DNA of 64,000 nt from NCBI GenBank assembly GCA_964463485.1, contig CAYXDO010000015.1, forward strand, positions 34,259-98,258, read 5' to 3'. A model generated the notes under the pieces. The model did not search any database, was not told the origin of the DNA, and saw only the letters and a program-made list of their open reading frames with translations. Source of the stretch: an uncultured Myxococcales bacterium. Its GTDB lineage: Bacteria > Myxococcota > Kuafuiibacteriia > Kuafuiibacteriales > Kuafuiibacteriaceae. Made by a program: the position numbers and the translations under genes. Positions within the stretch are counted from its first letter, which is position 1, and every line of letters starts with the position of its first letter. Below, piece by piece: positions 16,267 through 51,673 of the stretch.

Positions 16267-17729
16267 AACGGCTCCCGCTGGCAGACCGGGTCACTCGCGC
16301 GTTGCTGGTGATGTCACTGGTCGTGCTGGTCGGCCGGGTGCTCAGCGTGCCGGGCCCCTTCGGTGCCAACGACGTCTCCAGATGGGCCACCATTCGGTCC
16401 TTGGTCGACTTCTCGACGTTCGCAGTCGGTCAGCGCATTCGGGCGCCGGACGGAAGACTGGTCGAAGACAAGCCTCAGGGGACCATCGATCTCGTGTTGG
16501 ATCCGAGGACTGGATTCTTCTACTCGAGCAAGCCTCCCCTCCTCTCGACGATCATGGCCGCGGAGTACTGGGCGCTCCATCGCGCCCTGGATTGGCGCAT
16601 CGATACTCATGAGCCTCAGATCATGAAGGTTCTGCTTCTGACGTTCAACGTCACGGCGCTCACGACCTATCTCCTCGTCTTCGCGAGATTTCTCGAAGAT
16701 TTGAAGATCGTAGGTTGGAGTCGGGCGGTGCTCATCGGGCTCGCGGGGCTCGGAACCTTCGTCACGACCTTCGCCACGTCGATCACGAATCATGTCCCCG
16801 CCGCCGTATCGACATTGCTCTCTGCATACTGCTTCCGCAACGCCTGGGTTGGCGGAGCGCGGTTGGCTTATTTCGGGGCGGGTCTCTTCGCTGGCGTCGC
16901 CGCGAGCCTGGAGATACCAGCCGTGATTTTTTTGGGCGTCGTCGGGATCGTTCTCGTCGTCAGGAGTCCGCTGCGAACGTTTGGGCTATACTTCCCGGCG
17001 GCCTTGATTCCGATGGGGGGGTTTTGGCTCACGAACAGCCTGTCGTTTGGCGACCCTTTCTTCTTCTACCGACATCCGAAAGACTGGTTTGCGTACCCGG
17101 GTGGGTACTGGGACGCGCCGAGCGGCGTCGATCTCTTCGACAAGGGCCCGGTCGAATACTCGTTTCATTATCTCCTCGGACACCATGGGATCATCTCGCT
17201 CACACCCATGTTTTTCTTGGCGATCGTGGGTCTGGTCCGGACCAACCAAGCCATTCCGCGAGCTCGGTCTTGGATGGTCGCCGGGCTGATGTGCCCGGCC
17301 CTGGTCGGACTTTTGGCCCTGGGTCGCGTCGACGTGCCCGTGCCGACGGTCGTATCGATGGCGCCTTCCCTCCTGGTTGCCGGGCTCTGCTTCGTCTTGC
17401 CATGGAGATGGTTCGAGCGGGCCGGCGCGGATCCGGCAGGGTTCGATCGAGCCTTCTCGCGAGTCACGATCGCCTGCAGCCTCGTCGTCGCTTCGTTCTA
17501 CGTCTCTGGCACCTCGAACTACGGCGGGATCGCGGCCGGACCCCGCTGGTTCATGTGGCTCATGCCGCTGTGGATTGTATTCATGGGCTCGGGGACCGCG
17601 GAGTTGCTCGACTCCAAGCGGGGCCGATTCGTGCTCTCGGCGCTCCTCGCATTCTCTGCCTACTCGGCGCTCAGCCCAGGTGTGAGTGCGTGGACCAATC
17701 CCTGGATCTACTCCTTTTTCTTCCGGTGA
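16263..17729 (+). CDS. Polytopic membrane protein with at least 10 predicted TM segments. Putative GT-C-type glycosyltransferase or glycan polymerase.
   Basis: Highly hydrophobic 480-490-aa ORF. A candidate TTG start at 16263 overlaps the GT2 stop (TTGA). Follows polyprenyl-P GT2, ABC exporter and GT2 in one coupled run. Confidence 0.5.
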   Translation: MKRLPLADRVTRALLVMSLVVLVGRVLSVPGPFGANDVSRWATIRSLVDFSTFAVGQRIRAPDGRLVEDKPQGTIDLVLDPRTGFFYSSKPPLLSTIMAAEYWALHRALDWRIDTHEPQIMKVLLLTFNVTALTTYLLVFARFLEDLKIVGWSRAVLIGLAGLGTFVTTFATSITNHVPAAVSTLLSAYCFRNAWVGGARLAYFGAGLFAGVAASLEIPAVIFLGVVGIVLVVRSPLRTFGLYFPAALIPMGGFWLTNSLSFGDPFFFYRHPKDWFAYPGGYWDAPSGVDLFDKGPVEYSFHYLLGHHGIISLTPMFFLAIVGLVRTNQAIPRARSWMVAGLMCPALVGLLALGRVDVPVPTVVSMAPSLLVAGLCFVLPWRWFERAGADPAGFDRAFSRVTIACSLVVASFYVSGTSNYGGIAAGPRWFMWLMPLWIVFMGSGTAELLDSKRGRFVLSALLAFSAYSALSPGVSAWTNPWIYSFFFR

Positions 17730-20110
17730 ACCTCGAGCGTTCCAAATGGAATCACCGCCAGGCCCAAGTAGATCGCTGCGCCGAGCGCAATGGCCACGTC
17801 GAACCCGAGCGCATGCGAGATCGGGAGGTTGAATCCCGCAGCGAGTACAGCTGCCACTGAGTTTACGGCGAGGGCCCACGGGACGAGGCTCGAGTCGGAC
17901 GCGGACAGCGCGCTCAGGCCCCGTGGAAAAACGAGGCCGAGACCGAAACCGGCCGGCGCGAGCGCGACCACACACCCGAGCATGCGCAGCGCAACCTCCG
18001 ATCCGAGGAGGGTTGCCTTGGCGAGGTCGAGCGCGAAGAGCGAACCCAAAGAGCCCAGAGCGGCCAAGACGAGCGCGCCCCTGATTCCACGACCCGCGGC
18101 CCTGGTCGACCATCTACTGCCCAGCCCGGTAAAGACGATCAGGCCGCCGAGGCCAACGGCCAAGCTCTGACCAGGCCGCCCGACCAAGAGCTCGAGCTTT
18201 TGGAGGAGTCCGAGCTCGACCATCATGAACCCGCTCCCGGCGCCGAAGAACAGAAGCAGAAACTTCACCCGCTCGGAAACGTGGGCGCGAGAAGTTTCCT
18301 CCGCGCGGCGAATGCCGCGAAACCGTCGCAGGAGCAGAGGACCCAAGATGAGTATGACGGCGACCCCCGCGAACGCGGCGAGCGCCTCGCGGCGTCGGAC
18401 TTTGTGCTCGAAGTCCGCCCGAAAACCCAGCCGGTCCAATTCGGTTGGAAGTCTCGGCCACAAATACGCCGACGGTGGGAGCAAATCATAGACGAACGGA
18501 CGTTCATCACCGTCAGGTAACAGGCGCAAGCCGAGGGGGTTCTGTTCCAACACAGAGACTGGATCGTCGGCGTGGAGCAGGTCGTAATACGGGTTTCCTG
18601 GCTGGGAATGACGGGGAGCATACAGAAATCGGCCCGACTCTCCCGCGGCGATGCGCGTCAGGTCGGCGTCCGAGAAGCCGTGCGGCTTGATCAGGATCCG
18701 TGATTGATCGTGAGGGTCCCACCAAGCACGAGTCGCGCCCGAAACCACGGCCATGGCGTCACTCGCCCGTCCGGGACCGAGGGTGGAGTCGAGGACCTCG
18801 CGCACGGTAGCGGCCAATTTGAGCTTGTTGGTGTTCAGCACGGTGAGTTGACCCCCAGGAGCGAGGTGGTCGATGAGTTGGGCAACTCCCTGGCGAGTAT
18901 ACAAGAAACCCATGGCCTCGGTCAGCACGCCTCCGAAGGCCGCATATCCGGCCCCGGTCCAGGAGACGACTATGCAATCGAACTTACGAGCGTCGCGAGC
19001 CAAAAATCCCCGAGCCTCATCGATGACGAGCTCTATGTTGGGTTTGTCGAAAAACTCCGCGAGGTGGAAGTCGGTCTGAGACCGAGGCCAGTCCACGACC
19101 TGCGGCAGCAGCTCGACGCCCGTGATCCGAGCGCGCCCGCCAAGCGCGGCGTCGATCTGAATCATGTCCCAGCCGGCTCCGGCCAAGAGGACGAGCACAG
19201 AATTTCTGGGACATGCGGCCAGCGCTAGCTCAACGGCCTCGTCTGGGTCAGAGAGACTGCCTGGGTCATAGGGAACGATCGTCGCATGACCCCGTCCCTC
19301 CTCATGCGCCATGACGTAGCGCGTGCCTCCGGCCTCCTCGATTCTCAGCGCTGCGACCCGGGTGAGTGCGGTCCAGGTGTGCCATAGCTCCGTCACGGAG
19401 CCGCTCATGGAGCGGCTGAGTTTTCGGAGATCCGGTCTAGGCTCGAACGACTCGGCGACCTTTGGAAGGAGCAGGAGGCTGGAGGACGCCGCGAGCGCCA
19501 GACACACTCCCAGGAGCTTCTGGCTCCGCGAGTAAAGCCCCGCGCAGCAGAAGGCCAAACCGACGACGAACGCGAGAGGAGGTGCGAATCCACCGAGCTC
19601 GAGCAGGGCCACGGCGAGCACACACCCCGCCGCGGCGCCGAAGAGGTCGAATGAGTAAAGGGAGGCGATTCGCTCGGGAAGAGCCGCCGAAAATACCACC
19701 GAGTGTGCGACTCCGATGAAGAAGAACGGCAGGCTCATGAGCGCTCCGATCGCCAGCGCTCCTCGCATCTCGAGCGCCGCCGACTTGGCGACCAACTCAT
19801 CCAGCGTCGCGGCAGGAAGTCCATTCAGGTGCGACTTGATGCGCGCGGCCGCGAAGAATAGAACCAAGACGGACACCGCCGCCCCGAGCATGGCCCATGC
19901 AGCTTCCTGGCCTGCCCTCGACAGAGTCGGGGGCTCCTTCCTCAAGCAAACCCAGGCTCCGGCGACCGCCGTGCCAAGCATGGCCACTGACACCGTGTAA
20001 TATACCGTCGGCGGACCAAAGACGATGCTCAGCACCCGGCTCGCCAGAATCTCGAGGAGCAGGAGCGTCGCGGAGGCGACGAACACGGACCAAGATAGCC
20101 TCACCGTCAC
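17708..20110 (-). CDS. Spermidine-synthase-like (PABS-fold) domain embedded in a polytopic membrane protein
   Basis: Central VLVLLAGAGWDMI...VELLPQVV...FDCIVVSWTGAGYA...LAPGGQLTV is a class-I/spermidine-synthase-like fold. It is flanked by N- and C-terminal multi-TM regions. Start overlaps the next gene's stop by 4 nt. Confidence 0.7.
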   Translation of the reverse strand: MTVRLSWSVFVASATLLLLEILASRVLSIVFGPPTVYYTVSVAMLGTAVAGAWVCLRKEPPTLSRAGQEAAWAMLGAAVSVLVLFFAAARIKSHLNGLPAATLDELVAKSAALEMRGALAIGALMSLPFFFIGVAHSVVFSAALPERIASLYSFDLFGAAAGCVLAVALLELGGFAPPLAFVVGLAFCCAGLYSRSQKLLGVCLALAASSSLLLLPKVAESFEPRPDLRKLSRSMSGSVTELWHTWTALTRVAALRIEEAGGTRYVMAHEEGRGHATIVPYDPGSLSDPDEAVELALAACPRNSVLVLLAGAGWDMIQIDAALGGRARITGVELLPQVVDWPRSQTDFHLAEFFDKPNIELVIDEARGFLARDARKFDCIVVSWTGAGYAAFGGVLTEAMGFLYTRQGVAQLIDHLAPGGQLTVLNTNKLKLAATVREVLDSTLGPGRASDAMAVVSGATRAWWDPHDQSRILIKPHGFSDADLTRIAAGESGRFLYAPRHSQPGNPYYDLLHADDPVSVLEQNPLGLRLLPDGDERPFVYDLLPPSAYLWPRLPTELDRLGFRADFEHKVRRREALAAFAGVAVILILGPLLLRRFRGIRRAEETSRAHVSERVKFLLLFFGAGSGFMMVELGLLQKLELLVGRPGQSLAVGLGGLIVFTGLGSRWSTRAAGRGIRGALVLAALGSLGSLFALDLAKATLLGSEVALRMLGCVVALAPAGFGLGLVFPRGLSALSASDSSLVPWALAVNSVAAVLAAGFNLPISHALGFDVAIALGAAIYLGLAVIPFGTLEVHRKKKE

Positions 20111-21504
20111 GGGTCCTCCGGGGCACTCGAAGACGGCTCATTTCGCTCCCTCAGCGGGAAGCGAGCGCTCGAGATTCCAAGCCAGGCCACGATTCCGATC
20201 AAGAGAGCATTTCGAAGGACCAAGATGGTGACCGTCGGTGCGCTCAGCGCTGGAATGAGTCCTAATTCGTCCACAAGCTCGTCTCCCAAGTGCGAAACGA
20301 AGTGCTGACGATAGACCCAGTCCGTGGCCAAATACACCAGAGTGATGAGACCCATCAGGATCGGAAGCTCGCGAGGTCGAAGGACCTCGAGCCCTACGAC
20401 GCAAGCCATGGGTACGAGCCAGATGAGGTACTGCGGAGAGAGGACCTTGGAAGCAACGACGAACCCGAGAATCGCAACCAAGAGTAAGCCCAGCTCGTTT
20501 TCGCGCCTTGCTCGCAGGGTGCACGACGCCACGATGACGCCCTGCGCGAGCAGAGAGAGCGTCGACAGGGACCCAGCGATCGAAGTCTCGAGCTCGAACG
20601 TGTGGAACGCGAGCACAGCGCGGGCGTCGAGACCGAGAGGGCGCAACATGAGTACCAAACTCGACCATACCGACTCGATCTCGAGCCCTCGCACCGCGTG
20701 GAAATGAAGAAACCTGAGCGCACCGGCTCCCGCGTCCAGATGAGGAAGAAAAGTCGCACCGATCGCAGCTCCAACGGCGACAAGGCCGATCGCCGCTCGT
20801 CTCCGGCTCGCTCTCCACCGACTCGCGAAGAGAACCGGGACGGCCGCGGCCGGAAAAATCTTCAGCGCCACGCATCCGCCCAAGGCCGCATCGGCGGCGA
20901 GGTGTCGCTGACGATTCCAGAGACACAAGAACGCGGAGATTCCTGTCAGGAGCGCCACGTCGAGTCGGTCGTAGAGGACCGACGGCACGAGAGCGGGACC
21001 GAGCGCGTATACGATGGCGCCTAGCCCCGCGCGCCGGGCCGAGTATCGAGACAGAAAGTGGAGGAACGCCACGAATCCAAGAACGTCCAGCCCGGCCATC
21101 AAAGCGCGAAACCGGTGATAGTAGACGAGCAGGACTCGGAGGCGGAGCTTGTCAGCGGGCTCGATGCGCGACCCTGCTACGGCGCCTAGAGGATAGATGT
21201 CGCGCTCATCCAGATCCACGAGCTGCCGCCGGAAATTGGGAAACCAGCCCACGAGAGTCGGATCTCTGATTTCGCGGGCCGAAATGCCCAGCGATGGCAA
21301 CGCGATCAGCCACCACGCAGGGGGTGGATATTCGACCTGGATGTCTCGATACATCGAACCGCCGAGCTTCCAAGCCACGACGCGCTCGTGGTAGCGAACC
21401 ACATCGGTGCCGCCCGTGAGCGACTCTACCTCGAGCAGAACGAACGCGCGGGTGATCACGAACAGCAGCACACCCGGCAAGAGCCAGCCTAGTCTCTTTT
21501 TCAT
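20107..21504 (-). CDS. Polytopic membrane protein, DUF2029/GT87-like (GT-C-type mannosyltransferase-like)
   Basis: N-terminal TM helix followed by RYHERVVAWKLGGSMYRDIQVEYPPPAWW (DUF2029-like eYPP region), with many TM helices after. Confidence 0.5.
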   Translation of the reverse strand: MKKRLGWLLPGVLLFVITRAFVLLEVESLTGGTDVVRYHERVVAWKLGGSMYRDIQVEYPPPAWWLIALPSLGISAREIRDPTLVGWFPNFRRQLVDLDERDIYPLGAVAGSRIEPADKLRLRVLLVYYHRFRALMAGLDVLGFVAFLHFLSRYSARRAGLGAIVYALGPALVPSVLYDRLDVALLTGISAFLCLWNRQRHLAADAALGGCVALKIFPAAAVPVLFASRWRASRRRAAIGLVAVGAAIGATFLPHLDAGAGALRFLHFHAVRGLEIESVWSSLVLMLRPLGLDARAVLAFHTFELETSIAGSLSTLSLLAQGVIVASCTLRARRENELGLLLVAILGFVVASKVLSPQYLIWLVPMACVVGLEVLRPRELPILMGLITLVYLATDWVYRQHFVSHLGDELVDELGLIPALSAPTVTILVLRNALLIGIVAWLGISSARFPLRERNEPSSSAPEDP

Positions 21505-21595
21505 AGATGTCCTGCTCTGGTCCGGACACTCGAGCGACGGTACGCTACTCCAAAGCCCAGCCGCTAGCGACTCCAGGGAGTGAGGGAGTGAGATG

Positions 21596-21695
21596 AGCTC
21601 GGTTCAGCCAGCTCTGTTCGAAGCCAGCTCGGTTCGAAGCCAGCTCTGTTCGAAGCCAGCTCCGTTCGAAGCCAGATTCGTTCGAAGCCAAGTAG
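21596..21695. repeat. Tandem array of about 6 copies of a 16-bp unit gttcgaagccagctcN, in the intergenic region upstream of the 20107..21504 gene
   Basis: Read directly: ggttcagccagctct, gttcgaagccagctcg, gttcgaagccagctct, gttcgaagccagctcc, gttcgaagccagattc, gttcgaagccaagtag. Confidence 0.8.
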
Positions 21696-21716
21696 CCGCA
21701 GGCAAGATGCCTGCGG
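21696..21716 (-). terminator. Candidate stem-loop (ccgcaggc-aagat-gcctgcgg) 26 nt downstream of the outer-membrane-factor gene stop. No clear U-tract.
   Basis: Perfect 8-bp inverted repeat with a 5-nt loop in a convergent/intergenic position. Confidence 0.3.
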
Positions 21717-21741
21717 TCCCAGGGTAGAGGAAGGAACCTAG

Positions 21742-23067
21742 TCAGGGCACTTCCGGCGGCAGTCCGGCGGAGATTTGGAGAGCCGCTCGCGCGGACGCGA
21801 GGTCGCTTTGCGCTTGGATCTGCTGCACTTCTGCGCCGAACAAGTCGCGCTCAGCTTGTATGAGATCGAGCTGCGTGGCGGCTCCGAGTTGATACCTCTT
21901 GGACGCGACCTCGCGGGCCCGCGCTACGGCTTCTACCTGCGCCTTCACGGCTTGAACCTTGGTCAGGGCGGCGTGGAGGGCCTGCCAGTCCGCGTTGATT
22001 TGGTCTCGGGCCGCCATTCGAGTCCGCTCGACCACGAGTGCCAGGATCGCCAGATTCGATCCTTGCACGTCGATACCCATGAGCGCGGGTCCGTCCAACC
22101 TCCACTGGAGATTCGCGCCCAGCGTGAACGAAGCCGAGTGGCTCGAGAACCCAGCCGAGTTGCTCACTCGCTCGGTGAATTGGGCTCCCACGATGGGTAG
22201 GAGCGCGAGCTTTGCGGCGGTCGCCAGCTTCTCTCCGCCTTCACGATCGGCCTCTGCGGCGCGCACCGCGGGCAGCGCGTCGACGTGCATTTCCAAGTCC
22301 TCGAGCCTCCCCGCGGGACTCAGATCGAGCTTGGGAAGCCTCGCCGCGGGCCCAGGGTCGTGCCCCGTGAGCGACGTCAGACTACGCCTCGAAACCGCGA
22401 CGAGTCGCTGCGCATCCGCCACACTTTGCCGATTGCGCTCTACCTCGGCCCGAGCCCGCAACAGCTCGAGCTCGGTCACCGCGCCGGCTCGTTCGCGGAT
22501 CTCCTGGAACTCGAGCTGCGCCTCGGCCGCGACGACCGAGCGCTGGGCCGAGGCCTCGAGCGCCAAAGCTGCGGCGTACCCATACCAGCCGGTCGTCACC
22601 GCACGCCGAACCTGATCCATGGTGAGCTGCTCTCGCGCCGCGAGAGCCTCCCGCGAAGCCTCCGCCGCCCCTGCCCGCATCCACCTTTGAGTATCGATCA
22701 GCGGCACGTCCACCCGCGCGGCCAGGTCGAGCTGATCGAGCGCGACCAGCGTGACCGCGTCGGGACTCAATTTCCCGGGCGGAATCTCCGACTCATACTG
22801 ATTGTGCGTCCAGCCGGCTTGAACCGACAGGCTCGGCACGAGCGCAGACCACGCCTGCTTCACCTCCAGATCACTCTTTCGGTGCTGCTCGACGGTGATT
22901 CGGCGGTCGAGGTTGCGCTCGCTCGCGGCCGTAAGCAACTGAGCCAGAGTGACCGACGGCGCCGACGAGCGACTTTCGATCGCCGTGCTCGTCGTCAGGG
23001 TCGGTCGCAAGACCTCGCCCGCCTCGGGCCCGACTTGGGTCGCGAGCGCGATGACGAGCGAGATCAT
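21742..23067 (-). CDS. Outer membrane efflux protein (TolC/OprM family, OMF)
   Basis: 441 aa with a signal-like N-terminus. Two-repeat coiled-coil/beta-barrel composition. C-terminal QAERDLFGAEVQQIQAQSDLASARAALQ is typical of OMFs. Last gene of the tetR-MFP-RND-OMF operon. Confidence 0.8.
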   Translation of the reverse strand: MISLVIALATQVGPEAGEVLRPTLTTSTAIESRSSAPSVTLAQLLTAASERNLDRRITVEQHRKSDLEVKQAWSALVPSLSVQAGWTHNQYESEIPPGKLSPDAVTLVALDQLDLAARVDVPLIDTQRWMRAGAAEASREALAAREQLTMDQVRRAVTTGWYGYAAALALEASAQRSVVAAEAQLEFQEIRERAGAVTELELLRARAEVERNRQSVADAQRLVAVSRRSLTSLTGHDPGPAARLPKLDLSPAGRLEDLEMHVDALPAVRAAEADREGGEKLATAAKLALLPIVGAQFTERVSNSAGFSSHSASFTLGANLQWRLDGPALMGIDVQGSNLAILALVVERTRMAARDQINADWQALHAALTKVQAVKAQVEAVARAREVASKRYQLGAATQLDLIQAERDLFGAEVQQIQAQSDLASARAALQISAGLPPEVP

Positions 23068-27977: not shown

Positions 27978-28007
27978 GGATGGTTAGTAAGTGTTCACTA
28001 ACCATCC
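27978..28007. promoter_or_regulatory. Candidate TetR operator: perfect 11-bp inverted repeat GGATGGTTAGT-N8-ACTAACCATCC, 8 nt upstream of the tetR start codon
   Basis: Read directly from the sequence. The position in the tetR promoter is typical of an autoregulatory operator. Confidence 0.6.
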
Positions 28008-33478: not shown

Positions 33479-33526
33479 GCTTACGGAAGATGAGCTTACG
33501 GAAGATGAGCTTACGGAAGATGAGCT
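33479..33526. repeat. Tandem 15-bp repeat gcttacggaagatga x3.3 at the convergent 3' ends of the metzincin and chagasin-like genes
   Basis: Read directly: gcttacggaagatga gcttacggaagatga gcttacggaagatga gcttcag. Confidence 0.8.
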
Positions 33527-34661
33527 TCAGTACTGCGGTTCCTGGCCGATTTTGTACCAAGTGACTTTGTCACTCGGCGGAAACAGTGACTGCACCGACG
33601 CGTAGATCTGGCCCTTGATCGCGTAGGCGTTCACGTTGGCCTCGAGGCCGGCCTTGGTCATCGAGATTCGCTCGGCCTTCTTCCAGCCGGCGGGCGCCCG
33701 TCCGAGCTTGGTAGCGGTCTTGTCGTCTCCGAAGAGCGCGTCCTTCACCATGCCTCGAATCACGGCCTTCCGGTCGGCTTCGGTCGGTGCCATGATCGAC
33801 GCGCCTTCGGCGTCCTCCACTTTCACGGTGAAGTTGAACTTCTTGGCCGGATGCGCAGGATCGAACGGCCGAACGTATTCGAGCTCCACCTTGTGCGTGC
33901 CCACCGTGTTCAAGAACCCATCCGTCTTCCAGACGAGCTTGGTGTGACCGCCCGCGCCGACCGGCCCGCCGGCCCCGGGGCCCACGTACTCATTGGTGGC
34001 CGGATGGCCGAAGGTCTTGTCGGTCGAGTTGACCTGCCACTTGTATCCGGTCGTCGCGTTCGACCCCAGCTCGACGATGACGTCTTCGCCGCGCTTGACC
34101 GTGATGGTCTTGCCGTTGTCGTCGTCGCCGAGCTTGTTCACTTTGGCCGACGCGGCCTCCTTCACGTTCAGGGTGAAGGTGAATTTCTTGGCCGGATGGG
34201 CCGCATCGAAGGGACGCACGTACTCGAGCTCGACCTTGTGCTTCCCGACCGTATTCAAGAACCCATCGGTCTTCCAGATGAGTTGGGCAACTCCGCCGCC
34301 CCCCACCGGACCGCTCGAACCCGGACCGATGTACTCGTTCGACACGGGATGGCCGAGGGTCTTGTCGGTGGAGCTGACTTGCCACTTGTACCCAGTCGTG
34401 GCGTTCGCCGGCAACTTCACGACGACGTTCTCGCCCTTGGTCACATCGATCGTCTTGCCGTTGTCGTCCTCACCGATTCGGACACCGGTAATCATCTTGC
34501 CGCGCGTGCTCGACGGGCCGCCCAGTCGGCTCGCAGCCGAGGTGCCTACACGCTCCGCGGTATCGAGCGCCTTCTTGCTGCTCTTCTTCTTCGCCGTGGT
34601 GGGTTCAGTGGAAGTCGAGTGGACGGCGCCGGCCCCACCGGCTTTTCGGATGCTGCTGCTC
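33527..34661 (-). CDS. Tandem chagasin-family (MEROPS I42) cysteine-protease-inhibitor-like protein: two about 115-aa repeats plus a C-terminal domain of unknown function
   Basis: Two copies of GKTIxVxxGExVxVxLxxNATTGYKWQVxSTDKTxGHP...VGxHKVELEYVRPFDxAHPAKKF. NATTGYKW matches the chagasin NPTTG(Y/F)xW loop. ATG at 34661 has a GAGG RBS. No signal peptide. ORF-track start 34948 adds a basic, unlikely extension. Confidence 0.65.
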
Positions 34662-34842
34662 ATGATCGCCTCTGAAGATCGAACTGTGTCGGTCTTCTCC
34701 GGAGTTAATTGTGGGCCTATGTCGGTCGAACGAACGAATTTGTCAAGGGAAAACCGGGCGCGTCTGCTGACGGAGCCCCAGACACGAAGCCGCAAGTGAT
34801 CCGGAGCAACAGTGGGTCGCTTCAGCCGATAACGAGAGCAGG

Positions 34843-36444
34843 TTGAATCCGCCAATCCATCGGGCTCGGTGTGTCTTAGTCTTCGCTGTCTTCGCCGCTT
34901 GCGGAGACTCGGGATCGATCGGGAGGACGCCGCCCTATCTGGCTGCATCGGCCGACAAGATCGACTTTGGGGAGCGGACGGTCGGGACGGACGAAGAGCG
35001 CACGATCTACCTCATCAACAAAGGTCAGACGCCGCTCGAGCTCGAGATTCCGTCCGGAGACACACTCAACGGCATTTTCGCGGTGCTCTTGGATGAGTTC
35101 ACGGTGGCCGGAGAGCAGGACACAGTGGCTCGGGTTCGTTTCGAGCCCGCCGATCCGGTCTCCTACGAGACGGTGCTGCACGTACGCAACAACAGCTCGA
35201 ACCAGCCGGAGCTGAGTATCCAGGTGCTCGGGGTGGGGATCGAGCGAGACCCGTGCGACGGCGTGGACTGCTCCGCCGCGCCGGCGCCGTCGTGTGTATC
35301 CGAGTCGACCAGTCGTCACTACGAGCCGCTCGGAGTGTGCAACGCCGGTCATTGCGAGCATCAGTACCAGGACGACGTTTGCGAGCGTGGGTGCGACGTC
35401 ACGAGCGGAGTCTGCCGGCGAGACCCGTGTGAAGGGCTCGCGTGCAACACGCCACCGAGCCCGTGTTTCTTTGCGCAGGGCGCGTGTCGCGACGGCGCGT
35501 GCCAATACGAGCCCAACAACGCGGGCGTCTGCAGTGACTCGAGCCCGTGTACTCAGAACGACCGTTGTGCGGAGGGCAACTGCGTGGGTGACCCCATCGT
35601 GTGCTCGACGCCTCCGGACCCGCTCTGTGTAGACTCGACGACGCGGGAGGTAGCCAACCCGCAGGGCGTATGCAACCCGGCGACCGGGGGTTGTGAGTAT
35701 GCCGTTCAGCGTCAGTTTTGTGAGTTTGGATGTCTACCTCAAGGCTGTGACGGCGACCCTTGCATGGGTGTGGACTGTAACATGCCTCCGGCCACGCAAT
35801 GCTTTTCGCAGACGGGCGTGTGTGAGCTCGGCGTATGCAGCTACGAGTTGGTGGCGGGCCCTTGCGACGACGGCGACCCCTGCTCCCTCAACGACGCCTG
35901 TCGTATCGGCAGCTGTGTAGGCCAACCCACGATCTGCAACTCACCGCCGCCGCCGGACTGCGCCGCGCCCGACACGCGGCGTGTGTATGACACGAGCGGC
36001 GTGTGCACCAACGGCGCTTGTGAGTACGGAGCCACGACCGTCGCCTGCAACGACAGCAACGCGTGCACGGCGGGCGACTACTGCAGCGCCGGTGCTTGTC
36101 ACAGCGGCAGTGGGGTCAATTGCGACGACGGCAACCCATGCACGAGTGATAGCTGCGATCCGGGCGCGGGGTGCCGACACACCGCGATCAGCGGCGGGAG
36201 CTGCGTGAGCCCGAGCGGCGCGTGCCCCACGGGTACGTGCTCGTCCGGGACCTGCGTGCCCGTACCCAACGTGACTTGTGTGGCCACGTACCAGGCCGAC
36301 TTGTGCAACGACGTGGAGGTCGCCGGAATATGCGCTGCGAGCGGCGACTGCGTGGTGAGTCAAACGCCCCCCGAGTTCTATTGCCCGTGGTGTTACGGCA
36401 TCTGCCTGCAGTGTTATTTCATCCAGCTCTGCATCCCGTTCTGA
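34843..36444 (+). CDS. Cysteine-rich repeat lipoprotein (myxobacterial Cys-rich repeat type)
   Basis: Lipoprotein signal VLVFAVFAACGDSG. More than 15 repeats of C-x-D-G/N-x-C. Hydrophobic Cys-rich C-terminus CPWCYGICLQCYFIQLCIPF. Confidence 0.65.
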   Translation: MNPPIHRARCVLVFAVFAACGDSGSIGRTPPYLAASADKIDFGERTVGTDEERTIYLINKGQTPLELEIPSGDTLNGIFAVLLDEFTVAGEQDTVARVRFEPADPVSYETVLHVRNNSSNQPELSIQVLGVGIERDPCDGVDCSAAPAPSCVSESTSRHYEPLGVCNAGHCEHQYQDDVCERGCDVTSGVCRRDPCEGLACNTPPSPCFFAQGACRDGACQYEPNNAGVCSDSSPCTQNDRCAEGNCVGDPIVCSTPPDPLCVDSTTREVANPQGVCNPATGGCEYAVQRQFCEFGCLPQGCDGDPCMGVDCNMPPATQCFSQTGVCELGVCSYELVAGPCDDGDPCSLNDACRIGSCVGQPTICNSPPPPDCAAPDTRRVYDTSGVCTNGACEYGATTVACNDSNACTAGDYCSAGACHSGSGVNCDDGNPCTSDSCDPGAGCRHTAISGGSCVSPSGACPTGTCSSGTCVPVPNVTCVATYQADLCNDVEVAGICAASGDCVVSQTPPEFYCPWCYGICLQCYFIQLCIPF

Positions 36445-46900: not shown

Positions 46901-48710
46901 CAGCGGCACGGTGATCGGATTCAGCCCGGGCACCACGACGATTCAAATCAGTTATTCGGGCTTCAACGCGACGGTGACGGTCAATGTCGGCGCGACGCCC
47001 TTACGACTGATCGTCACGCCAGACCCGGTCGACGTCGACGTCGGTTCCGTCGTGGCGCTGAGTGTGTCCGTCCAACTCAGTGACGGAACGACTCAGCCCG
47101 CTACGGGTGCGACCTTCAGCTCCGACGACCCGTCGGTGGCCTCAGTCGGTCCACTCGGCGGCGTTCGCGGGGTGACCGCGGGACAGACGTTCGTGACGGT
47201 CAGCGCGATGGGATTGAGCGCGCGCATCGGCGTCACCGTCCACGCGGTCCCGCCGCCGGTGCTCACGCGCCTCGACCCGGATGCGATCGCGGTGGGTTCG
47301 CCAGCGACGACCGTTCGTGCGCTCGGGAGTGATTTCCGAGCGGGCGATCGTATCATCTTCGATGGCGGCGTGCTCACGGCGACCTTCGTCAGCGCCAACG
47401 AGCTCACCTTCAGACTCACCGCTACTCAGCTCCGGACCGTCGCCAATCACCGCGTCCAGGTCGAGCGTCCCACGACCGCGCAGAGATCGGTCGTTCGAAC
47501 TCTGCGGGTCGGAGAGCCTCCCAACATCAGCGAGCTCAACCCGGCGGCGATGCGAGAGGGTACGACGGAGGATTTGGAGGCCGTCGGCAGCGGACTCACG
47601 GGGCTGACGATCACCTCCAACAGCCCGGTGATTTCGATTTGCTGTGCGGCCGAGTCAGGGACTTCGGTCCAATTCAGGGTGACCGCGCCGGCGAGCTCGG
47701 CGGGTTCGTATACGCTCACCTTCACGAACGACTTTGGCTCGACGACGGTCACGCTCACCGTCCTGGCTGGCCCAGCGGATCTCGTGGTCAGTGCGGGTCA
47801 AACGGTCCATCTGTCCGGTGCGAATACCTATCACGACGTTCGTGTCGAGGCTGGCGGGACGATCATCGGGGATGGGTTCACGCCCCTGCACCTGTTTGCG
47901 GAGGGCACGATCACGATTCGAGGGATGATCGACGTAAGCGGGTCGGACGGGCAGGACGGCTTTCGCGGACCGGCGGGCGGCGGTGACGCAGGACCCGGCG
48001 GCGGTGGCGGTGGCGGCGGTGCGGACGGCAACACCAACTCTCCTGCGGCAGGCGGGCAAGGCGCGCCGAACGGAGGCTCTGCGGCGATCGGCGCGGGAGC
48101 TGGCACGGCGGCCGGAGACGGCGGCGGCTTGGGTGCGGGCGAAGGTGCAGCCGGAGGCTGTGGACAAGGCGGTGGCGGTGGCGCCTTTGGCGGCAACGGT
48201 GGCGCGGGCGGCGGCGACGCTGGAGACGGGCGCGGAGCCCCCGGAGGCACGGCCTCCGGCGGGAGCACGTTCGCGGGTGGCACCGGCGGAGGCGGCGGAA
48301 GCACATGCAGCAATAGCTCCGGCGGAGGCGGGGGCGGAGGCGGAGGCGTGCTCGTCCTCGAGACTGCAGGCGGCCAAATCTCGGTGGTCGGCATCGTGAG
48401 GGCTAACGGCGGCAAAGGGGGCGATGGGTTTGGCAACACCGGAGGCGCAGGCGGAGGCGCGGGCGGCCGAGTTCAGCTCGCAGCCCCAGGCGGAGTCGTG
48501 AGTGTGTCGGGTACGGTCGAGGCGGTCGGCGGCGGCGGCGGCAACTCCTTCGACGGGGATGCCGGCGGCGGCGGCGGCGGCGGCCAGATCGTGATCAGCG
48601 CGGGGACTCGCAATCTCACCGGAGTCATCGACGTGGCGGGAGGCAACGGCGGGCTCGCCATTCGAAATGGAAACTCGGGGCGACCCGGAGCCTCGGGAGT
48701 CACGCCCTAA
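43962..48710 (+). CDS. Giant surface lipoprotein, about 1580 aa: about 14 tandem bacterial Ig-like (Big_2) domains, IPT-like segments and a Gly-rich low-complexity C-terminal region
   Basis: Lipoprotein signal MIGRRVFHAAPLLLALVSCG. Recurrent about 85-aa units with ...G..A..G.A.ITA/VT....... typical of Big_2. Final about 215 aa are Gly/Ala/Asp-rich. ORF-track start 43881 precedes the signal peptide. Confidence 0.75.
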   Translation: MIGRRVFHAAPLLLALVSCGRDGPALGKSVERSLLIRPGSFELYRGQRFGFDVLLVEGGLEKSVLSEAETSLEPAKIVELQGLGAGIARAAGEAKLLAKHGPLSASADITVHAAELTGISVKPERFTLATGESRPLEVEGTLSDGSRVDLTPGATGTTYRSSGARFASVDANGSVLALAPGEVEITVTHGRFSATANLTITGEPPKGFVSLRLDPDVLALGFGQSALLRAIGKTEDGTEHDLVREGFEVSFGSSDNNLLVVSPMGSVQARNSEGSVTVTAKHRELSATAKVDIKREVERRLTSITIVPETATLNVGETLQLQVLGNYSDGTQADLTRGSGTTYRPTPANGPATVGQTTGLVRGARPGNSVITATNSGFTAQTRIRVLEADVTLTELIVEPAQVSIPVGETRELTVTAVFSDGSRTNVTSSPSTTYSVSPIDVATVNAGRVTGRRPGRAEVRITYGGITRSVEVVVTDQPVTVVGLRFVPDPIRVAVGSSVPFQVIAQYSDGSTRDVTGSRGLALRILDTSVAALSGIGGIQGQAAGDTFIEANFQNASARARIVVEGGPVGYVALILVVPNTIDVGSTEAWQVGGVRSDGQIDDLTHDPRLQISVSSSNVIAVRPGEVEGLRVGVSDLTVRMLGLSATRSVRVIATVDPVVRIEFVPASITMDVGDQVIVQLFAIYQSGARRDITYDPGVNGSATGPVDLLPDPNGVIVVALGAGRAQIDVTYQNLSASLPITIRGANPTLTSLEVVAPTSMNVGNVVAYQVIAHYSDGSVEDVTFDPNVVVRVSPPGVASLLGAGAIRGDSPGTAMVEAVLGGFQANAFIRVLPASFVALFWVPSALTLQVAESATAELFGRRADGSTSRISPSGVDALSASGPIAVSVGPTSFIISGSGVGTGELRASMDGLEAVLPVNVTPGPAQVTGIRGEPNPMNLTILGIGRITVIATYSDGREGPVTGATFVSANGMVANVDPSGTVIGFSPGTTTIQISYSGFNATVTVNVGATPLRLIVTPDPVDVDVGSVVALSVSVQLSDGTTQPATGATFSSDDPSVASVGPLGGVRGVTAGQTFVTVSAMGLSARIGVTVHAVPPPVLTRLDPDAIAVGSPATTVRALGSDFRAGDRIIFDGGVLTATFVSANELTFRLTATQLRTVANHRVQVERPTTAQRSVVRTLRVGEPPNISELNPAAMREGTTEDLEAVGSGLTGLTITSNSPVISICCAAESGTSVQFRVTAPASSAGSYTLTFTNDFGSTTVTLTVLAGPADLVVSAGQTVHLSGANTYHDVRVEAGGTIIGDGFTPLHLFAEGTITIRGMIDVSGSDGQDGFRGPAGGGDAGPGGGGGGGGADGNTNSPAAGGQGAPNGGSAAIGAGAGTAAGDGGGLGAGEGAAGGCGQGGGGGAFGGNGGAGGGDAGDGRGAPGGTASGGSTFAGGTGGGGGSTCSNSSGGGGGGGGGVLVLETAGGQISVVGIVRANGGKGGDGFGNTGGAGGGAGGRVQLAAPGGVVSVSGTVEAVGGGGGNSFDGDAGGGGGGGQIVISAGTRNLTGVIDVAGGNGGLAIRNGNSGRPGASGVTP
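47990..48640 (+). repeat. Gly-rich low-complexity coding region (GGGxGxG runs) at the C-terminus of the giant lipoprotein
   Basis: Translated runs GGGDAGPGGGGGGGGADG...GGGGGGGGGVLVLE...GGGGGGQIVIS. The underlying DNA is GGC/GGN-rich. Confidence 0.8.
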
Positions 48711-48803
48711 TCGGTATTTTTGACAGGCCCTGGCCCCAGGTACGGCGAACGTAAATCATAGAGCAGCCCCAAGCGCGGCGTGACAACTCACGGGCGTGAC
48801 AAC

Positions 48804-51341
48804 TCACGGGCGGGCCCTGGCGACGGCCACGCGGCGGCCAGACATTCCGAAAGCGAGCTCTTGGTCACCGATCAGGGCCACAGCGCCAGCGAATTCAGCA
48901 TCGAGCCGCGTCCATCGGTCGAGGGCGAAAGGCCTTTCGATGAAAGTGCGGCGACCGAGCGACAAGGTCTGCGCAAAGACGGTCAAGTGCCCCAGCGGGT
49001 CAATCAGCACCGACGGAGTTCCCGTCATGAGTAGCCTGGGAGAGTCTCGCGCCGGCACATCGTACCCGGGCAACGCTCGGATTCGAAGCCCGTCGGCGCG
49101 GTCTGCGAGTCGGCGCGGTCGAGCCTCGACCAGGTTGACTCGATCGAGGATGCTGGAGCGAACCGCGAAGAGGACACCGCCCTGCTCGAGGTCTTGAATC
49201 GATTCGATGGGTCGACTCTGCCCGAGAGTGGAGTCTGCGACGACCTCGGCGGGGAGGGCAACACGCTGGACTCTGCCAGCCGCGTATCGGGCCAGCACTC
49301 CGGAGCAGCCCCCGAGCCAGGCGACACCCCCTCCCGCGGATGCGACGTGACGCCACGACCCCGGGATGGGTGCGAACGGATCCGGAAACTCGGCGGTTCG
49401 CGCGCAATCGTTCGTGCCCGGCGAGGTTTCGAGTTCGGGAGTGCTCGGATCGTCCCACGCGACCTCGACCTCGGCGGCGACGTCTCCTCGGAGCTCGTAG
49501 ACTTTCCAGCCCGCACCCACGAGGAGCCCCACTCCGTGGGCGACCTCTGCGACGTCGTCGTAGGTGATTTCGGGTAGGTCATATTTGGTCCAATGAGGCG
49601 GGTTGATTGAAACGTCGAGCCGTCCAGCGAAGCCGCCCTCGGGTGTCGTCGCTGCGATCCAGAACGTCCCATCCGCGCGCGATCGAGCGGCGCCGACGAC
49701 AAAAGCGCGAGGATCGACCGGCAGCGAGATCGGCGAGCCCAGAGCGCGGCCTTCGAGCTTCGTGACCTCCGGGGGGCTTGGCCAGAACACCCAAGCCGCG
49801 TCGCCGTCGGGTACGATCGCGGCGGCAGGGAGGGTGTGCTCGCGGCCGTAGGTAGGTTCGGGAGGGCTGCCCGAATGAGACCGCAGCCACTCGCCATCGC
49901 GGGCTCTCGCGAGCAAAGTCCCGACGGGAATCGAGTCTGGCCGAAAGAGATCAGCTGGCAGGCCCAACTCGGCAAGTAAACCGGCGCGAGCGTGGTCGTC
50001 GGCATCCAGCACGAGCGCTCGACCGTCGGCCATACTCACCCAGGTCTCGGTCTCCGTTCGATGAACGATTCCGGAGATGGCGACCGAGGAGGTCAGGATT
50101 GTCTCCCAAGGACTCGTCCCTCGGACCTGGGATCGATGAAGTCGGTAACGCCCCTCTTCGACGGTGTAGACTAGGCCTTTGCTACCGACGCGACCCAGGT
50201 GGACCCGCGACCCGAGGCGACTGACATCCCGAGTCGCCAGCTGAGGAGACAAGTCGAGCGCGAAGACGGCGCCCTGCCCGCCGAGGAGCAGCGTGGACTC
50301 GTCGAGGGCGACCACAGATTCCGCCTTGTCTGGGGCTCTCGACAGGCTGCCGCGGACGGTGCAAGTCGACAGATTGTCGCACTCATAGACGATCAATCGG
50401 TGGGGCGAGTTGATGTCTTGGTGTATGATGAGTACGGACCCAGAGGGAGCTCGACACAAAGTGTATTTCTCGATCCCCGAAAACCGTGGAATCGAGTGTT
50501 TCAGCTCGACACCTCGACTCGACATCGAGAAGACGCGCGCGAGGTCCGCTTGGTCGGTGTCGAGGCTGAGCACGAGGACGGAAGCGTCACCGAGGGCCTC
50601 CGCATCGATGATCGGCCCGGGGAAAGTCACCGGGTGCGTCGTTCGCTCCCCGGCTGAACCGATCCACAGCGCGACTCGCTCGCTGACGAACGCGGATGCG
50701 CCGCTCGGCGTCATCGCGGCGATCTCGACGGGCTCTGCGTCCAAAGGGGGATGGATGAACTCGATATCCAGCGGAGGGCTCGTCGCGGCGACTTCCGGCC
50801 AGGCCGAGCAGGTGCCCGGGCGCGTCACGACGACCGACCGTTCGAGCGCGAGCGCGGAGGGATCTGAGGAATCGAGCCTATGAGTCGGGTCGAACACGGC
50901 GGCGAACGGGGGGATCGGGCACGCGTCGCCTTCGAGCAAGAGCTGAGGAGGTTGCGTCGCGGGCACGGCGCAGAACGGACAGCTCCCAATCAGAGGGGCA
51001 TCGGTGGACTTTCGCACATCGAGCGCTCCGACTTCGGTGACACTCAGCGGCGCGCTGGTGGGGCCCACGAGGTCCGCGGCAGCGACGACCACGAGGAGCT
51101 TCCCGTAGGTTTCGTCGACCTCGACGCGACCCAGTCCGTCGCGAATGGGTACGACTTTGTCCACCTGCCCGCTGGCGTCCATGGAAACGAAAACGACCAG
51201 ATCGCCGGGCAGCGCGTCGACGGGAAACGTGAGCGCGTCGGGAGCGCAAGCGATCAGGCCGCAAGCGATCAGGCAGCAAGCGATCAGGGCGAGGCGCAGC
51301 GTCGCGCTCCCTGAAGAGGGACTCACCTTCTCAGCATGCAC
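48804..51341 (-). CDS. Large secreted (lipo)protein of about 845 aa, of unknown function. The signal peptide contains three tandem LIAC lipobox-like motifs.
   Basis: N-terminus ...SATLRLALIACCLIACGLIACAPDA. Long beta-rich body with no motif I recognise. Start placed at a GTG about 51341; ORF-track start 51419. Confidence 0.55.
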   Translation of the reverse strand: MHAEKVSPSSGSATLRLALIACCLIACGLIACAPDALTFPVDALPGDLVVFVSMDASGQVDKVVPIRDGLGRVEVDETYGKLLVVVAAADLVGPTSAPLSVTEVGALDVRKSTDAPLIGSCPFCAVPATQPPQLLLEGDACPIPPFAAVFDPTHRLDSSDPSALALERSVVVTRPGTCSAWPEVAATSPPLDIEFIHPPLDAEPVEIAAMTPSGASAFVSERVALWIGSAGERTTHPVTFPGPIIDAEALGDASVLVLSLDTDQADLARVFSMSSRGVELKHSIPRFSGIEKYTLCRAPSGSVLIIHQDINSPHRLIVYECDNLSTCTVRGSLSRAPDKAESVVALDESTLLLGGQGAVFALDLSPQLATRDVSRLGSRVHLGRVGSKGLVYTVEEGRYRLHRSQVRGTSPWETILTSSVAISGIVHRTETETWVSMADGRALVLDADDHARAGLLAELGLPADLFRPDSIPVGTLLARARDGEWLRSHSGSPPEPTYGREHTLPAAAIVPDGDAAWVFWPSPPEVTKLEGRALGSPISLPVDPRAFVVGAARSRADGTFWIAATTPEGGFAGRLDVSINPPHWTKYDLPEITYDDVAEVAHGVGLLVGAGWKVYELRGDVAAEVEVAWDDPSTPELETSPGTNDCARTAEFPDPFAPIPGSWRHVASAGGGVAWLGGCSGVLARYAAGRVQRVALPAEVVADSTLGQSRPIESIQDLEQGGVLFAVRSSILDRVNLVEARPRRLADRADGLRIRALPGYDVPARDSPRLLMTGTPSVLIDPLGHLTVFAQTLSLGRRTFIERPFALDRWTRLDAEFAGAVALIGDQELAFGMSGRRVAVARARP
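51246..51290. repeat. 15-bp x3 tandem repeat gcaagcgatcaggNc inside the signal-peptide coding region of the 48804..51341 gene
   Basis: Read directly: gcaagcgatcaggcc gcaagcgatcaggca gcaagcgatcagggc. On the minus strand it encodes LIAC-C, LIAC-G, LIAC-A. Confidence 0.85.
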
Positions 51342-51673
51342 TCGACCGTGGAGACGAGGAAGCCTTGCACATCGAAATTCCGGCGGAATGTCGTCCGGGG
51401 ACAGGTGACACGACCCCATGTCCGCTGACCACGGGCATCGAACGAGTCTCTGCGGGGCTCGGCCACAAGCCTTTCTTCGTCAGCCGAGTAGGCCGGGAGC
51501 TGGTCGAGATGCCCGCAATGGAGCTCGAGTGAAGCACCGGTTTGACACCTCGTGCGATCCTCCCCATGACTGAGGAGCCCAAACGAGGGCTGCCGAACGA
51601 ATCCGAGGAAGTCGAGAGGCCGGAGCGAGTCTTGTGAGTGAAGCCAAGCGACGCGAGGTTCGACGACAGGAAA

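What the first reader, a model, noticed from the sequence alone, without database searches (positions are those of the whole stretch)
21596..21716. Six tandem 16-bp repeats plus a hairpin in the region between the efflux operon end and the DUF2029 gene start
gttcgaagccagctcN is repeated about 6 times head-to-tail (21596-21695). It is immediately followed by a perfect 8-bp stem hairpin (ccgcaggc-aagat-gcctgcgg). The array sits exactly where the promoter of the 20107..21504 / 17708..20110 operon must be. It could be an iterated transcription-factor binding array, a contingency (copy-number-variable) element, or a REP-like intergenic repeat family member.
Basis: seen in the sequence. Interest (0 to 1): 0.5.

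Follow-up and report, generated by a model that had tools for sequence, protein, structure and literature searches.

The report
Orphan 16-bp minisatellite between two operons
A real but one-of-a-kind run of six 16-base repeats sits between the end of a drug-efflux operon and the start of a sugar-transferase operon in an uncultured myxobacterium. It looks like an ordinary young DNA-slippage product that may touch the downstream promoter, not a known or widespread element.

Summary
Window 21596-21695 holds a head-to-tail 16-bp array, read on the gene strand (minus) as N-GAGC-TGGCTTCGAAC. It has three perfect units, two units changed only in the GAGC linker, one unit with a 2-bp deletion and a 6-nt partial unit. 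It abuts a perfect 9-bp-stem, 3-nt-loop hairpin at 21696-21716, 25 nt after the stop of the outer-membrane efflux gene.

The array is far beyond chance. The hairpin alone is not.

Neither element recurs in the window, in about 1 Mb of related Myxococcota loci, in 185,579 species-representative genomes, or in JGI metagenomes, phages and plasmids. This refutes the REP-like reading, although the rest of the source genome could not be scanned.

Two independent short-read assemblies give the identical array, so copy-number variation has no support.

The TetR-MFP-RND-OMP module is conserved in about 45 relatives, never followed by the GT87-like gene. The array therefore lies at a synteny break, in the only space available for the downstream promoter.

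Best reading: a lineage-specific, slippage-born minisatellite between a U-tract-less terminator hairpin and that promoter. A protein-binding array stays open, because all five substitutions avoid the 11-bp core (corrected p about 0.013). Interest is low.

The parts
21596..21695 (-). 16-bp tandem array: 5 full units, 1 unit with a 2-bp deletion and a 6-nt partial unit. The unit is N-GAGC-TGGCTTCGAAC on the minus strand. A period-32 substructure is present (alternating N).
   Evidence: TRF score 135-148 against at most 63 in simulations.
21696..21716 (-). Perfect hairpin (9-bp stem, 3-nt loop) 25 nt after the OEP stop codon. Terminator-like but without a U tract; the tail is CUACUUGGCUUCG.
   Evidence: No hit in the consensus terminator scan. 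Relatives carry hairpins, some canonical, at the same place.
21575..21592 (-). Second micro-duplication, 8 bp x 2.2 (AGGGAGTG on plus, CACTCCCT on minus). It lies directly promoter-proximal to the 16-bp array.
21505..21574 (-). Unique 70 nt upstream of the ATG. It holds a GCTAGC-centred palindrome (21559-21572) and an AGGA Shine-Dalgarno at 21510-21513. This is the presumed core promoter and 5' UTR of the GT87-like operon; no consensus promoter was found.
21742..23067 (-). Outer-membrane efflux protein (OEP/TolC-like), the last gene of the TetR-MFP-RND-OMP module.
20107..21504 (-). GT87/DUF2029-like membrane protein, the first gene of the downstream two-gene unit (with 17708-20110). It is nearly an orphan: the best homologue is 29% identical.

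Best explanation
This is a lineage-specific intergenic minisatellite. It arose by successive tandem duplications (slipped-strand mispairing or unequal exchange) in the spacer between two co-directional transcription units.

The hairpin 25 nt after the OEP stop is the terminator-like end of the conserved efflux operon. This is inferred.

The array starts at the very next base. Its most recent step was duplication of a 32-bp double unit, followed by a 2-bp deletion. Together with a neighbouring 8-bp micro-duplication, it fills the distal upstream region (-92 to -191 from the ATG) of the GT87-like operon.

It has no dedicated, conserved function. Its likeliest effect is incidental: it separates the terminator from the downstream promoter by about 100 bp and provides the upstream sequence context of that promoter.

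Shown: the anatomy, its uniqueness, its stability between assemblies, and the synteny break.
Inferred: the slippage origin, the terminator role, and promoter proximity.
For: - Uniqueness. There is no other copy of the unit with fewer than two mismatches anywhere in the window. The 11-nt core with up to one mismatch occurs 3 times outside the array against 1.8 expected. The core is absent from 80 related Myxococcota loci. The two-unit pattern has 0 hits in 185,579 species-representative genomes and 0 in viral contigs. It has one unrelated 2-copy hit in JGI metagenomes. There is no blastn hit in plasmids or phages.
- Signs of stepwise duplication. The period-32 row scores higher than the period-16 row. 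The two promoter-proximal double units differ only by a 2-bp deletion. An adjacent 8-bp x 2.2 duplication is present.
- Such arrays with unrelated units are common here and in relatives. The window has 15 bp x 3.3 at 33479-33527 and 16 bp x 2.2 at 48777-48812. Intergenic 23-bp arrays occur in L039 and L074.
- Synteny. The efflux module ends at the OMP in about 45 relatives, and GT87 or the 800-aa gene never follows.
- Hairpins. The 80 nt after the OMP stop in 40 relatives folds into stronger hairpins than coding controls (median -16.8 vs -15.4 kcal/mol, p = 0.002). Canonical U-tract terminators are seen in L012, L082 and L017.
- No RNA family, no tRNA and no credible ORF.
- The whole spacer is not unusually structured as RNA (z = -0.82).
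Against: - All five substitutions among the five full units fall in the 4-nt GAGC linker and none in the 11-nt core (Fisher p = 0.0009). After correcting for choosing the partition post hoc, p is about 0.013. Neutral decay would not be expected to give this pattern.
- The hairpin lacks a U tract and is not statistically exceptional.
- The rest of the source genome (GCA_016208175.1) could not be scanned, so dispersed single copies of the core elsewhere are not excluded.
- No close relative exists to test conservation.
Confidence: 0.5

Rival explanations
1. The array is an iterated protein-binding platform (operator or upstream activating array). Five in-register copies of the 11-bp core TGGCTTCGAAC, spaced 16 bp apart, recruit or polymerise a DNA-binding regulator. 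That regulator activates or represses the promoter of the GT87-like glycan operon just downstream.
For: - The core is invariant in 5 units while the 5-nt linker varies (0/55 vs 5/20 substitutions, p = 0.0009; corrected about 0.013).
- The position, -92 to -191 from the ATG, is typical of upstream regulatory sites.
- The 32-bp double-unit periodicity is about 3 helical turns.
- The core contains the palindrome TTCGAA.
Against: - No DNA-binding regulator is encoded next to the operon.
- The TetR-like gene of the efflux operon has its own unrelated perfect 11-bp inverted repeat directly upstream of its start codon.
- No extra core sites lie in other intergenic regions of the 64-kb window.
- No sigma-54-like promoter lies between the array and the ATG that would call for an enhancer-binding protein, and no sigma-70 consensus is found.
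- A 16-bp spacing puts successive sites on opposite faces of the helix.
- The promoter-proximal unit has a deletion inside the core.
- Conservation cannot be tested, because the best homologue of the downstream gene is 29% identical.
Confidence: 0.28
2. The array is a copy-number-variable (contingency-type) element. Gain or loss of 16- or 32-bp units changes promoter geometry, and so expression of a surface-glycan operon, within the population.
For: - It lies upstream of a glycosyltransferase-type operon, the class of genes often under phase variation (established knowledge).
- There are three perfect consecutive units, with signs of recent 32-bp duplication.
- Two Logan contigs end at the neighbouring hairpin, which might reflect local heterogeneity.
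Against: - The MAG contig and an independent assembly of run SRR12113406 carry exactly the same array and are identical over 11.6 kb.
- The contig breaks are at the hairpin, not inside the array, and every 26-mer in the region is unique.
- Only three units are identical and the unit is 16 bp, so slippage rates should be far below those of classic 1-9-bp contingency repeats (established knowledge).
Confidence: 0.1
3. The array is an RNA-level element. It is transcribed as a 3' extension of the efflux mRNA or as the 5' leader of the GT87-like mRNA, and its repeated motif forms structure or binds an RNA-binding protein.
For: - The array alone folds somewhat better than shuffles as RNA (z = -2.67, 2 of 200 shuffles as good).
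- Neighbouring units can form a 12-bp stem that includes 4 G-U pairs.
Against: - The whole intergenic RNA is not unusually stable (z = -0.82).
- There is no Rfam match.
- Self-pairing follows trivially from the small palindromes (AGCT, TTCGAA) repeated in tandem.
- No covariation test is possible because there are no homologues.
Confidence: 0.07
4. The array is a member of a dispersed REP/BIME-like intergenic repeat family.
For: A hairpin plus short repeats in an intergenic gap between co-directional operons is the usual home of REP-type elements (established knowledge).
Against: - Neither the unit nor the hairpin recurs in the window.
- Neither recurs in related loci.
- Neither is found in any searched collection.
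Confidence: 0.03

Closest known systems
Bacterial intergenic minisatellites / VNTR loci (e.g. the MIRU-type and other 10-100-bp tandem repeats used for MLVA typing)
   Same: - Head-to-tail units of 10-100 bp lie in a non-coding gap between co-directional genes.
- Perfect units alternate with altered ones.
- The array is locus-specific and probably born by slippage.
   Different: - No copy-number polymorphism has been shown.
- This is not a multi-locus family (MIRUs are dispersed).
- The terminal-unit changes are confined to a 4-nt linker rather than spread over the unit.
Reiterated regulator-binding arrays (plasmid iterons, ParR/omega-type direct-repeat operators, tandem activator sites)
   Same: - Five in-register copies of an invariant 11-bp core carry variable linkers.
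- They lie directly upstream of an operon.
   Different: - No cognate binding protein or replication/partition genes are nearby.
- The 16-bp period is not a whole number of helical turns.
- No homologous array exists elsewhere.
- There is no match to plasmids.
Promoter-located contingency repeats (e.g. the 7-bp repeats upstream of Haemophilus hmw genes, tetranucleotide repeats upstream of Neisseria nadA)
   Same: The tandem repeat lies upstream of genes for cell-surface structures, where unit number could alter promoter output.
   Different: - The unit is much longer (16 bp).
- There are few perfect copies.
- The copy number is identical in independent assemblies.
Rho-independent terminators
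   Same: A G+C-rich perfect stem-loop lies 25 nt after the last stop codon of an operon. Homologous operons in relatives carry hairpins there, some canonical.
   Different: There is no U tract after the stem, and it is not detected by the consensus scan.

Membership tests
Intergenic minisatellite / VNTR | Head-to-tail repeats of a 10-100-bp unit, non-coding | tested here: met
   TRF period 16, 5.3 copies, score 135; period 32, score 148. No credible ORF.
Intergenic minisatellite / VNTR | Copy number differs between strains or within populations | tested here: inconclusive
   Only one strain is available. The MAG and the Logan assembly of another run are identical. No reads and no second strain could be examined.
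REP/BIME-like dispersed intergenic repeats | Many copies dispersed through the genome | tested here: not met
   No further copy in the 64-kb window, in related loci or in genome, metagenome and viral collections. The rest of the source MAG was not searchable.
Contingency (phase-variable) simple-sequence repeat | Long run of identical short (1-9 bp) units prone to slippage | tested here: not met
   The unit is 16 bp and only 3 units are identical.
Contingency (phase-variable) simple-sequence repeat | Length heterogeneity in the population | not testable with these tools
   This needs read-level data. The assemblies agree.
Iteron / reiterated operator array | Regularly spaced repeats with a conserved recognition core | tested here: met
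   The 11-nt core is invariant in 5 units: 0/55 substitutions against 5/20 in the linker. Corrected p = 0.013.
Iteron / reiterated operator array | Cognate DNA-binding protein (Rep, ParR or other regulator) encoded nearby or shown to bind | tested here: not met
   The neighbours are efflux components and membrane glycosyltransferase-like proteins. The TetR-like gene has its own, different palindrome. Binding itself is not testable here.
Rho-independent terminator | G+C-rich stem-loop just after the last gene of an operon | tested here: met
   9-bp perfect stem, -16.2 kcal/mol, 25 nt after the stop.
Rho-independent terminator | U-rich tract immediately 3' of the stem | tested here: not met
   The tail is CUACUUGGCUUCG. 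No terminator-like site is reported.
Sigma-54 promoter with enhancer-binding-protein sites | TGGCAC-N5-TTGC element between the upstream sites and the gene | tested here: not met
   No match with 3 or fewer mismatches on the minus strand in 21505-21595. The window-wide count equals chance.
Known RNA families (Rfam 15) | Covariance-model match | tested here: not met
   Only one hit at E = 9.1, far below the gathering score.

The most novel reading that the evidence does not exclude
The array is a purpose-built regulatory platform. An unidentified DNA-binding protein recognises the invariant 11-bp core TGGCTTCGAAC. It coats five or six sites at 16-bp spacing, alternating faces, with 32 bp equal to three turns. 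In this way it switches a lineage-specific, nearly orphan GT-C-type glycan operon, and unit gain or loss tunes the response.
Probability: 0.2. Interest if true: 0.35.

Novelty: new member of a known kind. Interest (0 to 1): 0.17.

Why it matters
As it stands it matters little. It is one more locus-specific minisatellite in an uncultured myxobacterial genome.

It is useful as a strain marker. It is also a reminder that the downstream, almost orphan GT87-like operon needs its own promoter.

If the conserved core proved to be a binding site, the array would give a ready-made handle (pull-down bait) to find the regulator of a lineage-specific surface-glycan operon.

Tried and rejected
- Dispersed repeat family. 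I searched the unit, the core and the hairpin in the window, in 89 fetched loci, and in genome, metagenome, viral, plasmid and phage collections. Nothing related turned up.
- tRNA-derived sequence or integration site. The unit contains GGTTCGAA, reminiscent of a T-loop, but ARAGORN finds no tRNA in the window and by eye the flanks do not form a T-stem.
- Known RNA element. There is no Rfam hit, and the whole-spacer fold is not exceptional.
- Sigma-54 promoter with enhancer sites, and sigma-70 promoter. There are no convincing matches.
- Coding potential. Only short repeat-derived ORFs of 29-58 aa cross the spacer, and the period is not a multiple of 3.
- Genomic-island boundary. There is no G+C or skew discontinuity around 21.5 kb.
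- Orthologous upstream regions. The GT87-like protein has no homologue above 29% identity, and the two distant homologues examined sit in unrelated contexts.
- TetR operator identity. The palindrome directly upstream of the TetR-like gene's start codon is unrelated to the array core.
- CRISPR, parS and iteron resemblance by eye. There are no spacers, the unit is not palindromic, and no replication or partition genes are present.

Full report
**1. What is there**

All genes around the finding lie on the minus strand. Read in that direction the order is:
- a TetR-like gene (27970-27356)
- a membrane-fusion protein (27359-26286)
- an AcrB-type RND pump (26273-23064)
- an OEP/TolC-like outer-membrane protein (23067-21742)
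- a 237-nt gap
- a GT87/DUF2029-like membrane protein (21504-20107)
- an overlapping 800-aa protein without family assignment (20110-17708)

In the gap, 25 nt after the OEP stop, lies a perfect hairpin: CCGCAGGCA-UCU-UGCCUGCGG at 21716-21696, with a 9-bp stem and a 3-nt loop (-16.2 kcal/mol).

The tandem array begins at the very next base. Its units are CTACTTGGCTTCGAAC, GAATCTGGCTTCGAAC, GGAGCTGGCTTCGAAC, AGAGCTGGCTTCGAAC, CGAGCTGGCTTCGAAC, AGAGCTGGCT--GAAC and CGAGCT (21695-21596).

An 8-bp x 2.2 micro-repeat follows at 21592-21575. Then come 70 unique bases with an AGGA ribosome-binding site 5 nt before the ATG.

**2. Is it more than chance?**

The array clearly is. TRF scores are 135 (period 16) and 148 (period 32), against a maximum of 63 in 30 Markov simulations of the window.

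The hairpin alone is not. The window has 18 perfect 8-bp hairpins against 12.9 +/- 4.3 expected. Only its position after a stop codon makes it meaningful.

The array is not an assembly artefact. All k-mers of 26 bases or more in the region are unique. Logan assemblies of two other sequencing runs are 100% identical to the window over 11.4 and 11.6 kb. One of them crosses the whole array.

**3. Source and relatives**

The window is part of contig JACQYO010000084.1 of MAG GCA_016208175.1, named 'Deltaproteobacteria bacterium'.

The closest RND-pump homologues in 185,579 species-representative genomes are Myxococcaceae and Archangiaceae MAGs, at no more than about 76% amino-acid identity. No close relative is therefore available.

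The four-gene efflux module is conserved in about 45 of the fetched loci. None of them has the GT87-like or the 800-aa gene downstream.

The GT87-like protein itself has no homologue above 29% identity among 5.8 billion proteins. The two distant homologues examined sit in unrelated contexts.

The array therefore lies at a synteny break between a conserved module and a lineage-specific glycan cluster. The downstream pair needs its own promoter inside the 237-nt gap unless it depends on read-through.

**4. Is the unit a family?**

It is not, on the data available.
- In the window no other copy has fewer than 2 mismatches.
- The 11-nt core with up to 1 mismatch occurs 3 times outside the array, against 1.8 expected, none of them in or near this spacer.
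- The core and the hairpin are absent from all related loci.
- A two-unit pattern with 23 specified bases finds nothing in the genome collection or the viral collection.
- In JGI metagenomes it finds only a two-copy chance hit in an AT-rich, eukaryote-like contig.
- blastn against plasmids and phages finds nothing.

The source MAG is not in the genome collection, so its other contigs remain unsearched.

**5. Hairpin**

In 40 related loci the 80 nt after the OMP stop fold into stronger single hairpins than coding controls (median -16.8 vs -15.4 kcal/mol, Mann-Whitney p = 0.002).

Several are canonical terminators with U tracts (L012, L082, L017).

The hairpin here is in the top 12% of control windows but has no U tract, and the consensus scan does not report it. 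I read it as the terminator-like end of the efflux operon. This is an inference.

**6. Origin and possible function of the array**

The period-32 signal, and two double units that differ only by a 2-bp deletion, indicate recent duplication of a 32-bp block. The adjacent 8-bp duplication shows that the spacer is prone to slippage.

Unrelated short perfect arrays occur elsewhere in the window: 33479-33527, 48777-48812 and 51245-51288. Intergenic 23-bp arrays occur in relatives L039 and L074. Such arrays are therefore a generic product in these genomes.

One observation argues against pure neutrality. The five substitutions among the five full units all lie in the GAGC linker and none in the core (Fisher p = 0.0009). 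The probability that five random substitutions fall in some 4-nt window is 0.013. This keeps a protein-binding array alive.

Several points weigh against the binding-array reading:
- There is no nearby regulator.
- The TetR-like gene has its own unrelated 11-bp inverted repeat.
- No sigma-54 or sigma-70 consensus is found.
- There are no additional core sites.
- The promoter-proximal unit carries a deletion in its core.

At the RNA level there is no Rfam family. The spacer as a whole is not unusually stable (z = -0.82). The array alone folds moderately better than shuffles (z = -2.67), as expected for tandem units that contain the palindromes AGCT and TTCGAA.

**7. Verdict**

The element is a real, unique, stable 16-bp minisatellite next to a terminator-like hairpin, in the upstream region of a lineage-specific operon.

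| Reading | Confidence |
|---|---|
| Young slippage product with at most incidental promoter effects | 0.5 |
| Reiterated binding array | 0.28 |
| Contingency element | 0.1 |
| RNA element | 0.07 |
| REP-like family | 0.03 |

It is a new member of a known kind, and interest is low.

Noticed in passing
window 21696-21717; L002:1-22; L004:11351-11372: Two Logan (k=31) contigs from runs SRR12113406 and SRR12113402 are identical to the window over more than 11 kb, yet both stop at the hairpin and overlap by only 22 nt. The eight 31-mers that contain the whole hairpin plus both flanks are missing. No repeat explains this. Possible causes are sequence-specific Illumina errors after an inverted repeat (my own knowledge, untested) or micro-heterogeneity at 21695 and 21718.
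   Followed up: partly
window 27978-28007: A perfect 11-bp inverted repeat, GGATGGTTAGT-N8-ACTAACCATCC, ends 7 nt upstream of the ATG of the TetR-like gene. It is a likely TetR operator of the efflux operon and is unrelated to the 16-bp array.
   Followed up: partly
window 33479-33527: A perfect 15-bp x 3.3 tandem array (GCTTACGGAAGATGA) begins 3 nt after the stop codon of the minus-strand gene 33527-34948. On the minus strand its unit junction shares the 9-mer AGCTCATCT with the promoter-proximal flank of the 16-bp array.
   Followed up: no
window 48777-48812: A perfect 16-bp x 2.2 tandem repeat (GGCGTGACAACTCACG) lies in the gap between convergent ORFs ending at 48710 (+) and 48804 (-).
   Followed up: no
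window 51245-51288: An in-frame 15-bp x 2.9 repeat near the N-terminus of ORF 48804-51419 (-) encodes LIACC-LIACG-LIACA. This is a triplicated lipobox-like segment of a signal peptide.
   Followed up: partly
window 33808-34476: A 345-bp x 1.9 internal repeat (78% matches) lies inside the minus-strand ORF 33527-34948. It is presumably a duplicated protein domain.
   Followed up: no
window 17708-21504: The GT87/DUF2029-like protein has almost no relatives: 7 hits at E of 1e-10 or better among 5.8 billion proteins, the best 29% identical. Its 800-aa partner matches no Pfam or NCBIfam family, but was not searched against that protein database. The pair sits next to a cluster of GT2 glycosyltransferases and an ABC transporter.
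   Followed up: partly
L074:11876-11981; L039:13374-13484: Related Myxococcota MAGs carry their own intergenic 23-bp tandem arrays (4.6 and 4.9 copies) between co-directional ORFs. Their unit sequences are unrelated to this one.
   Followed up: partly
L005:103-133: The only metagenome hit to the two-unit pattern is a 2-copy 16-bp repeat in a 1.2-kb AT-rich contig that looks eukaryotic. It is judged a chance match.
   Followed up: yes
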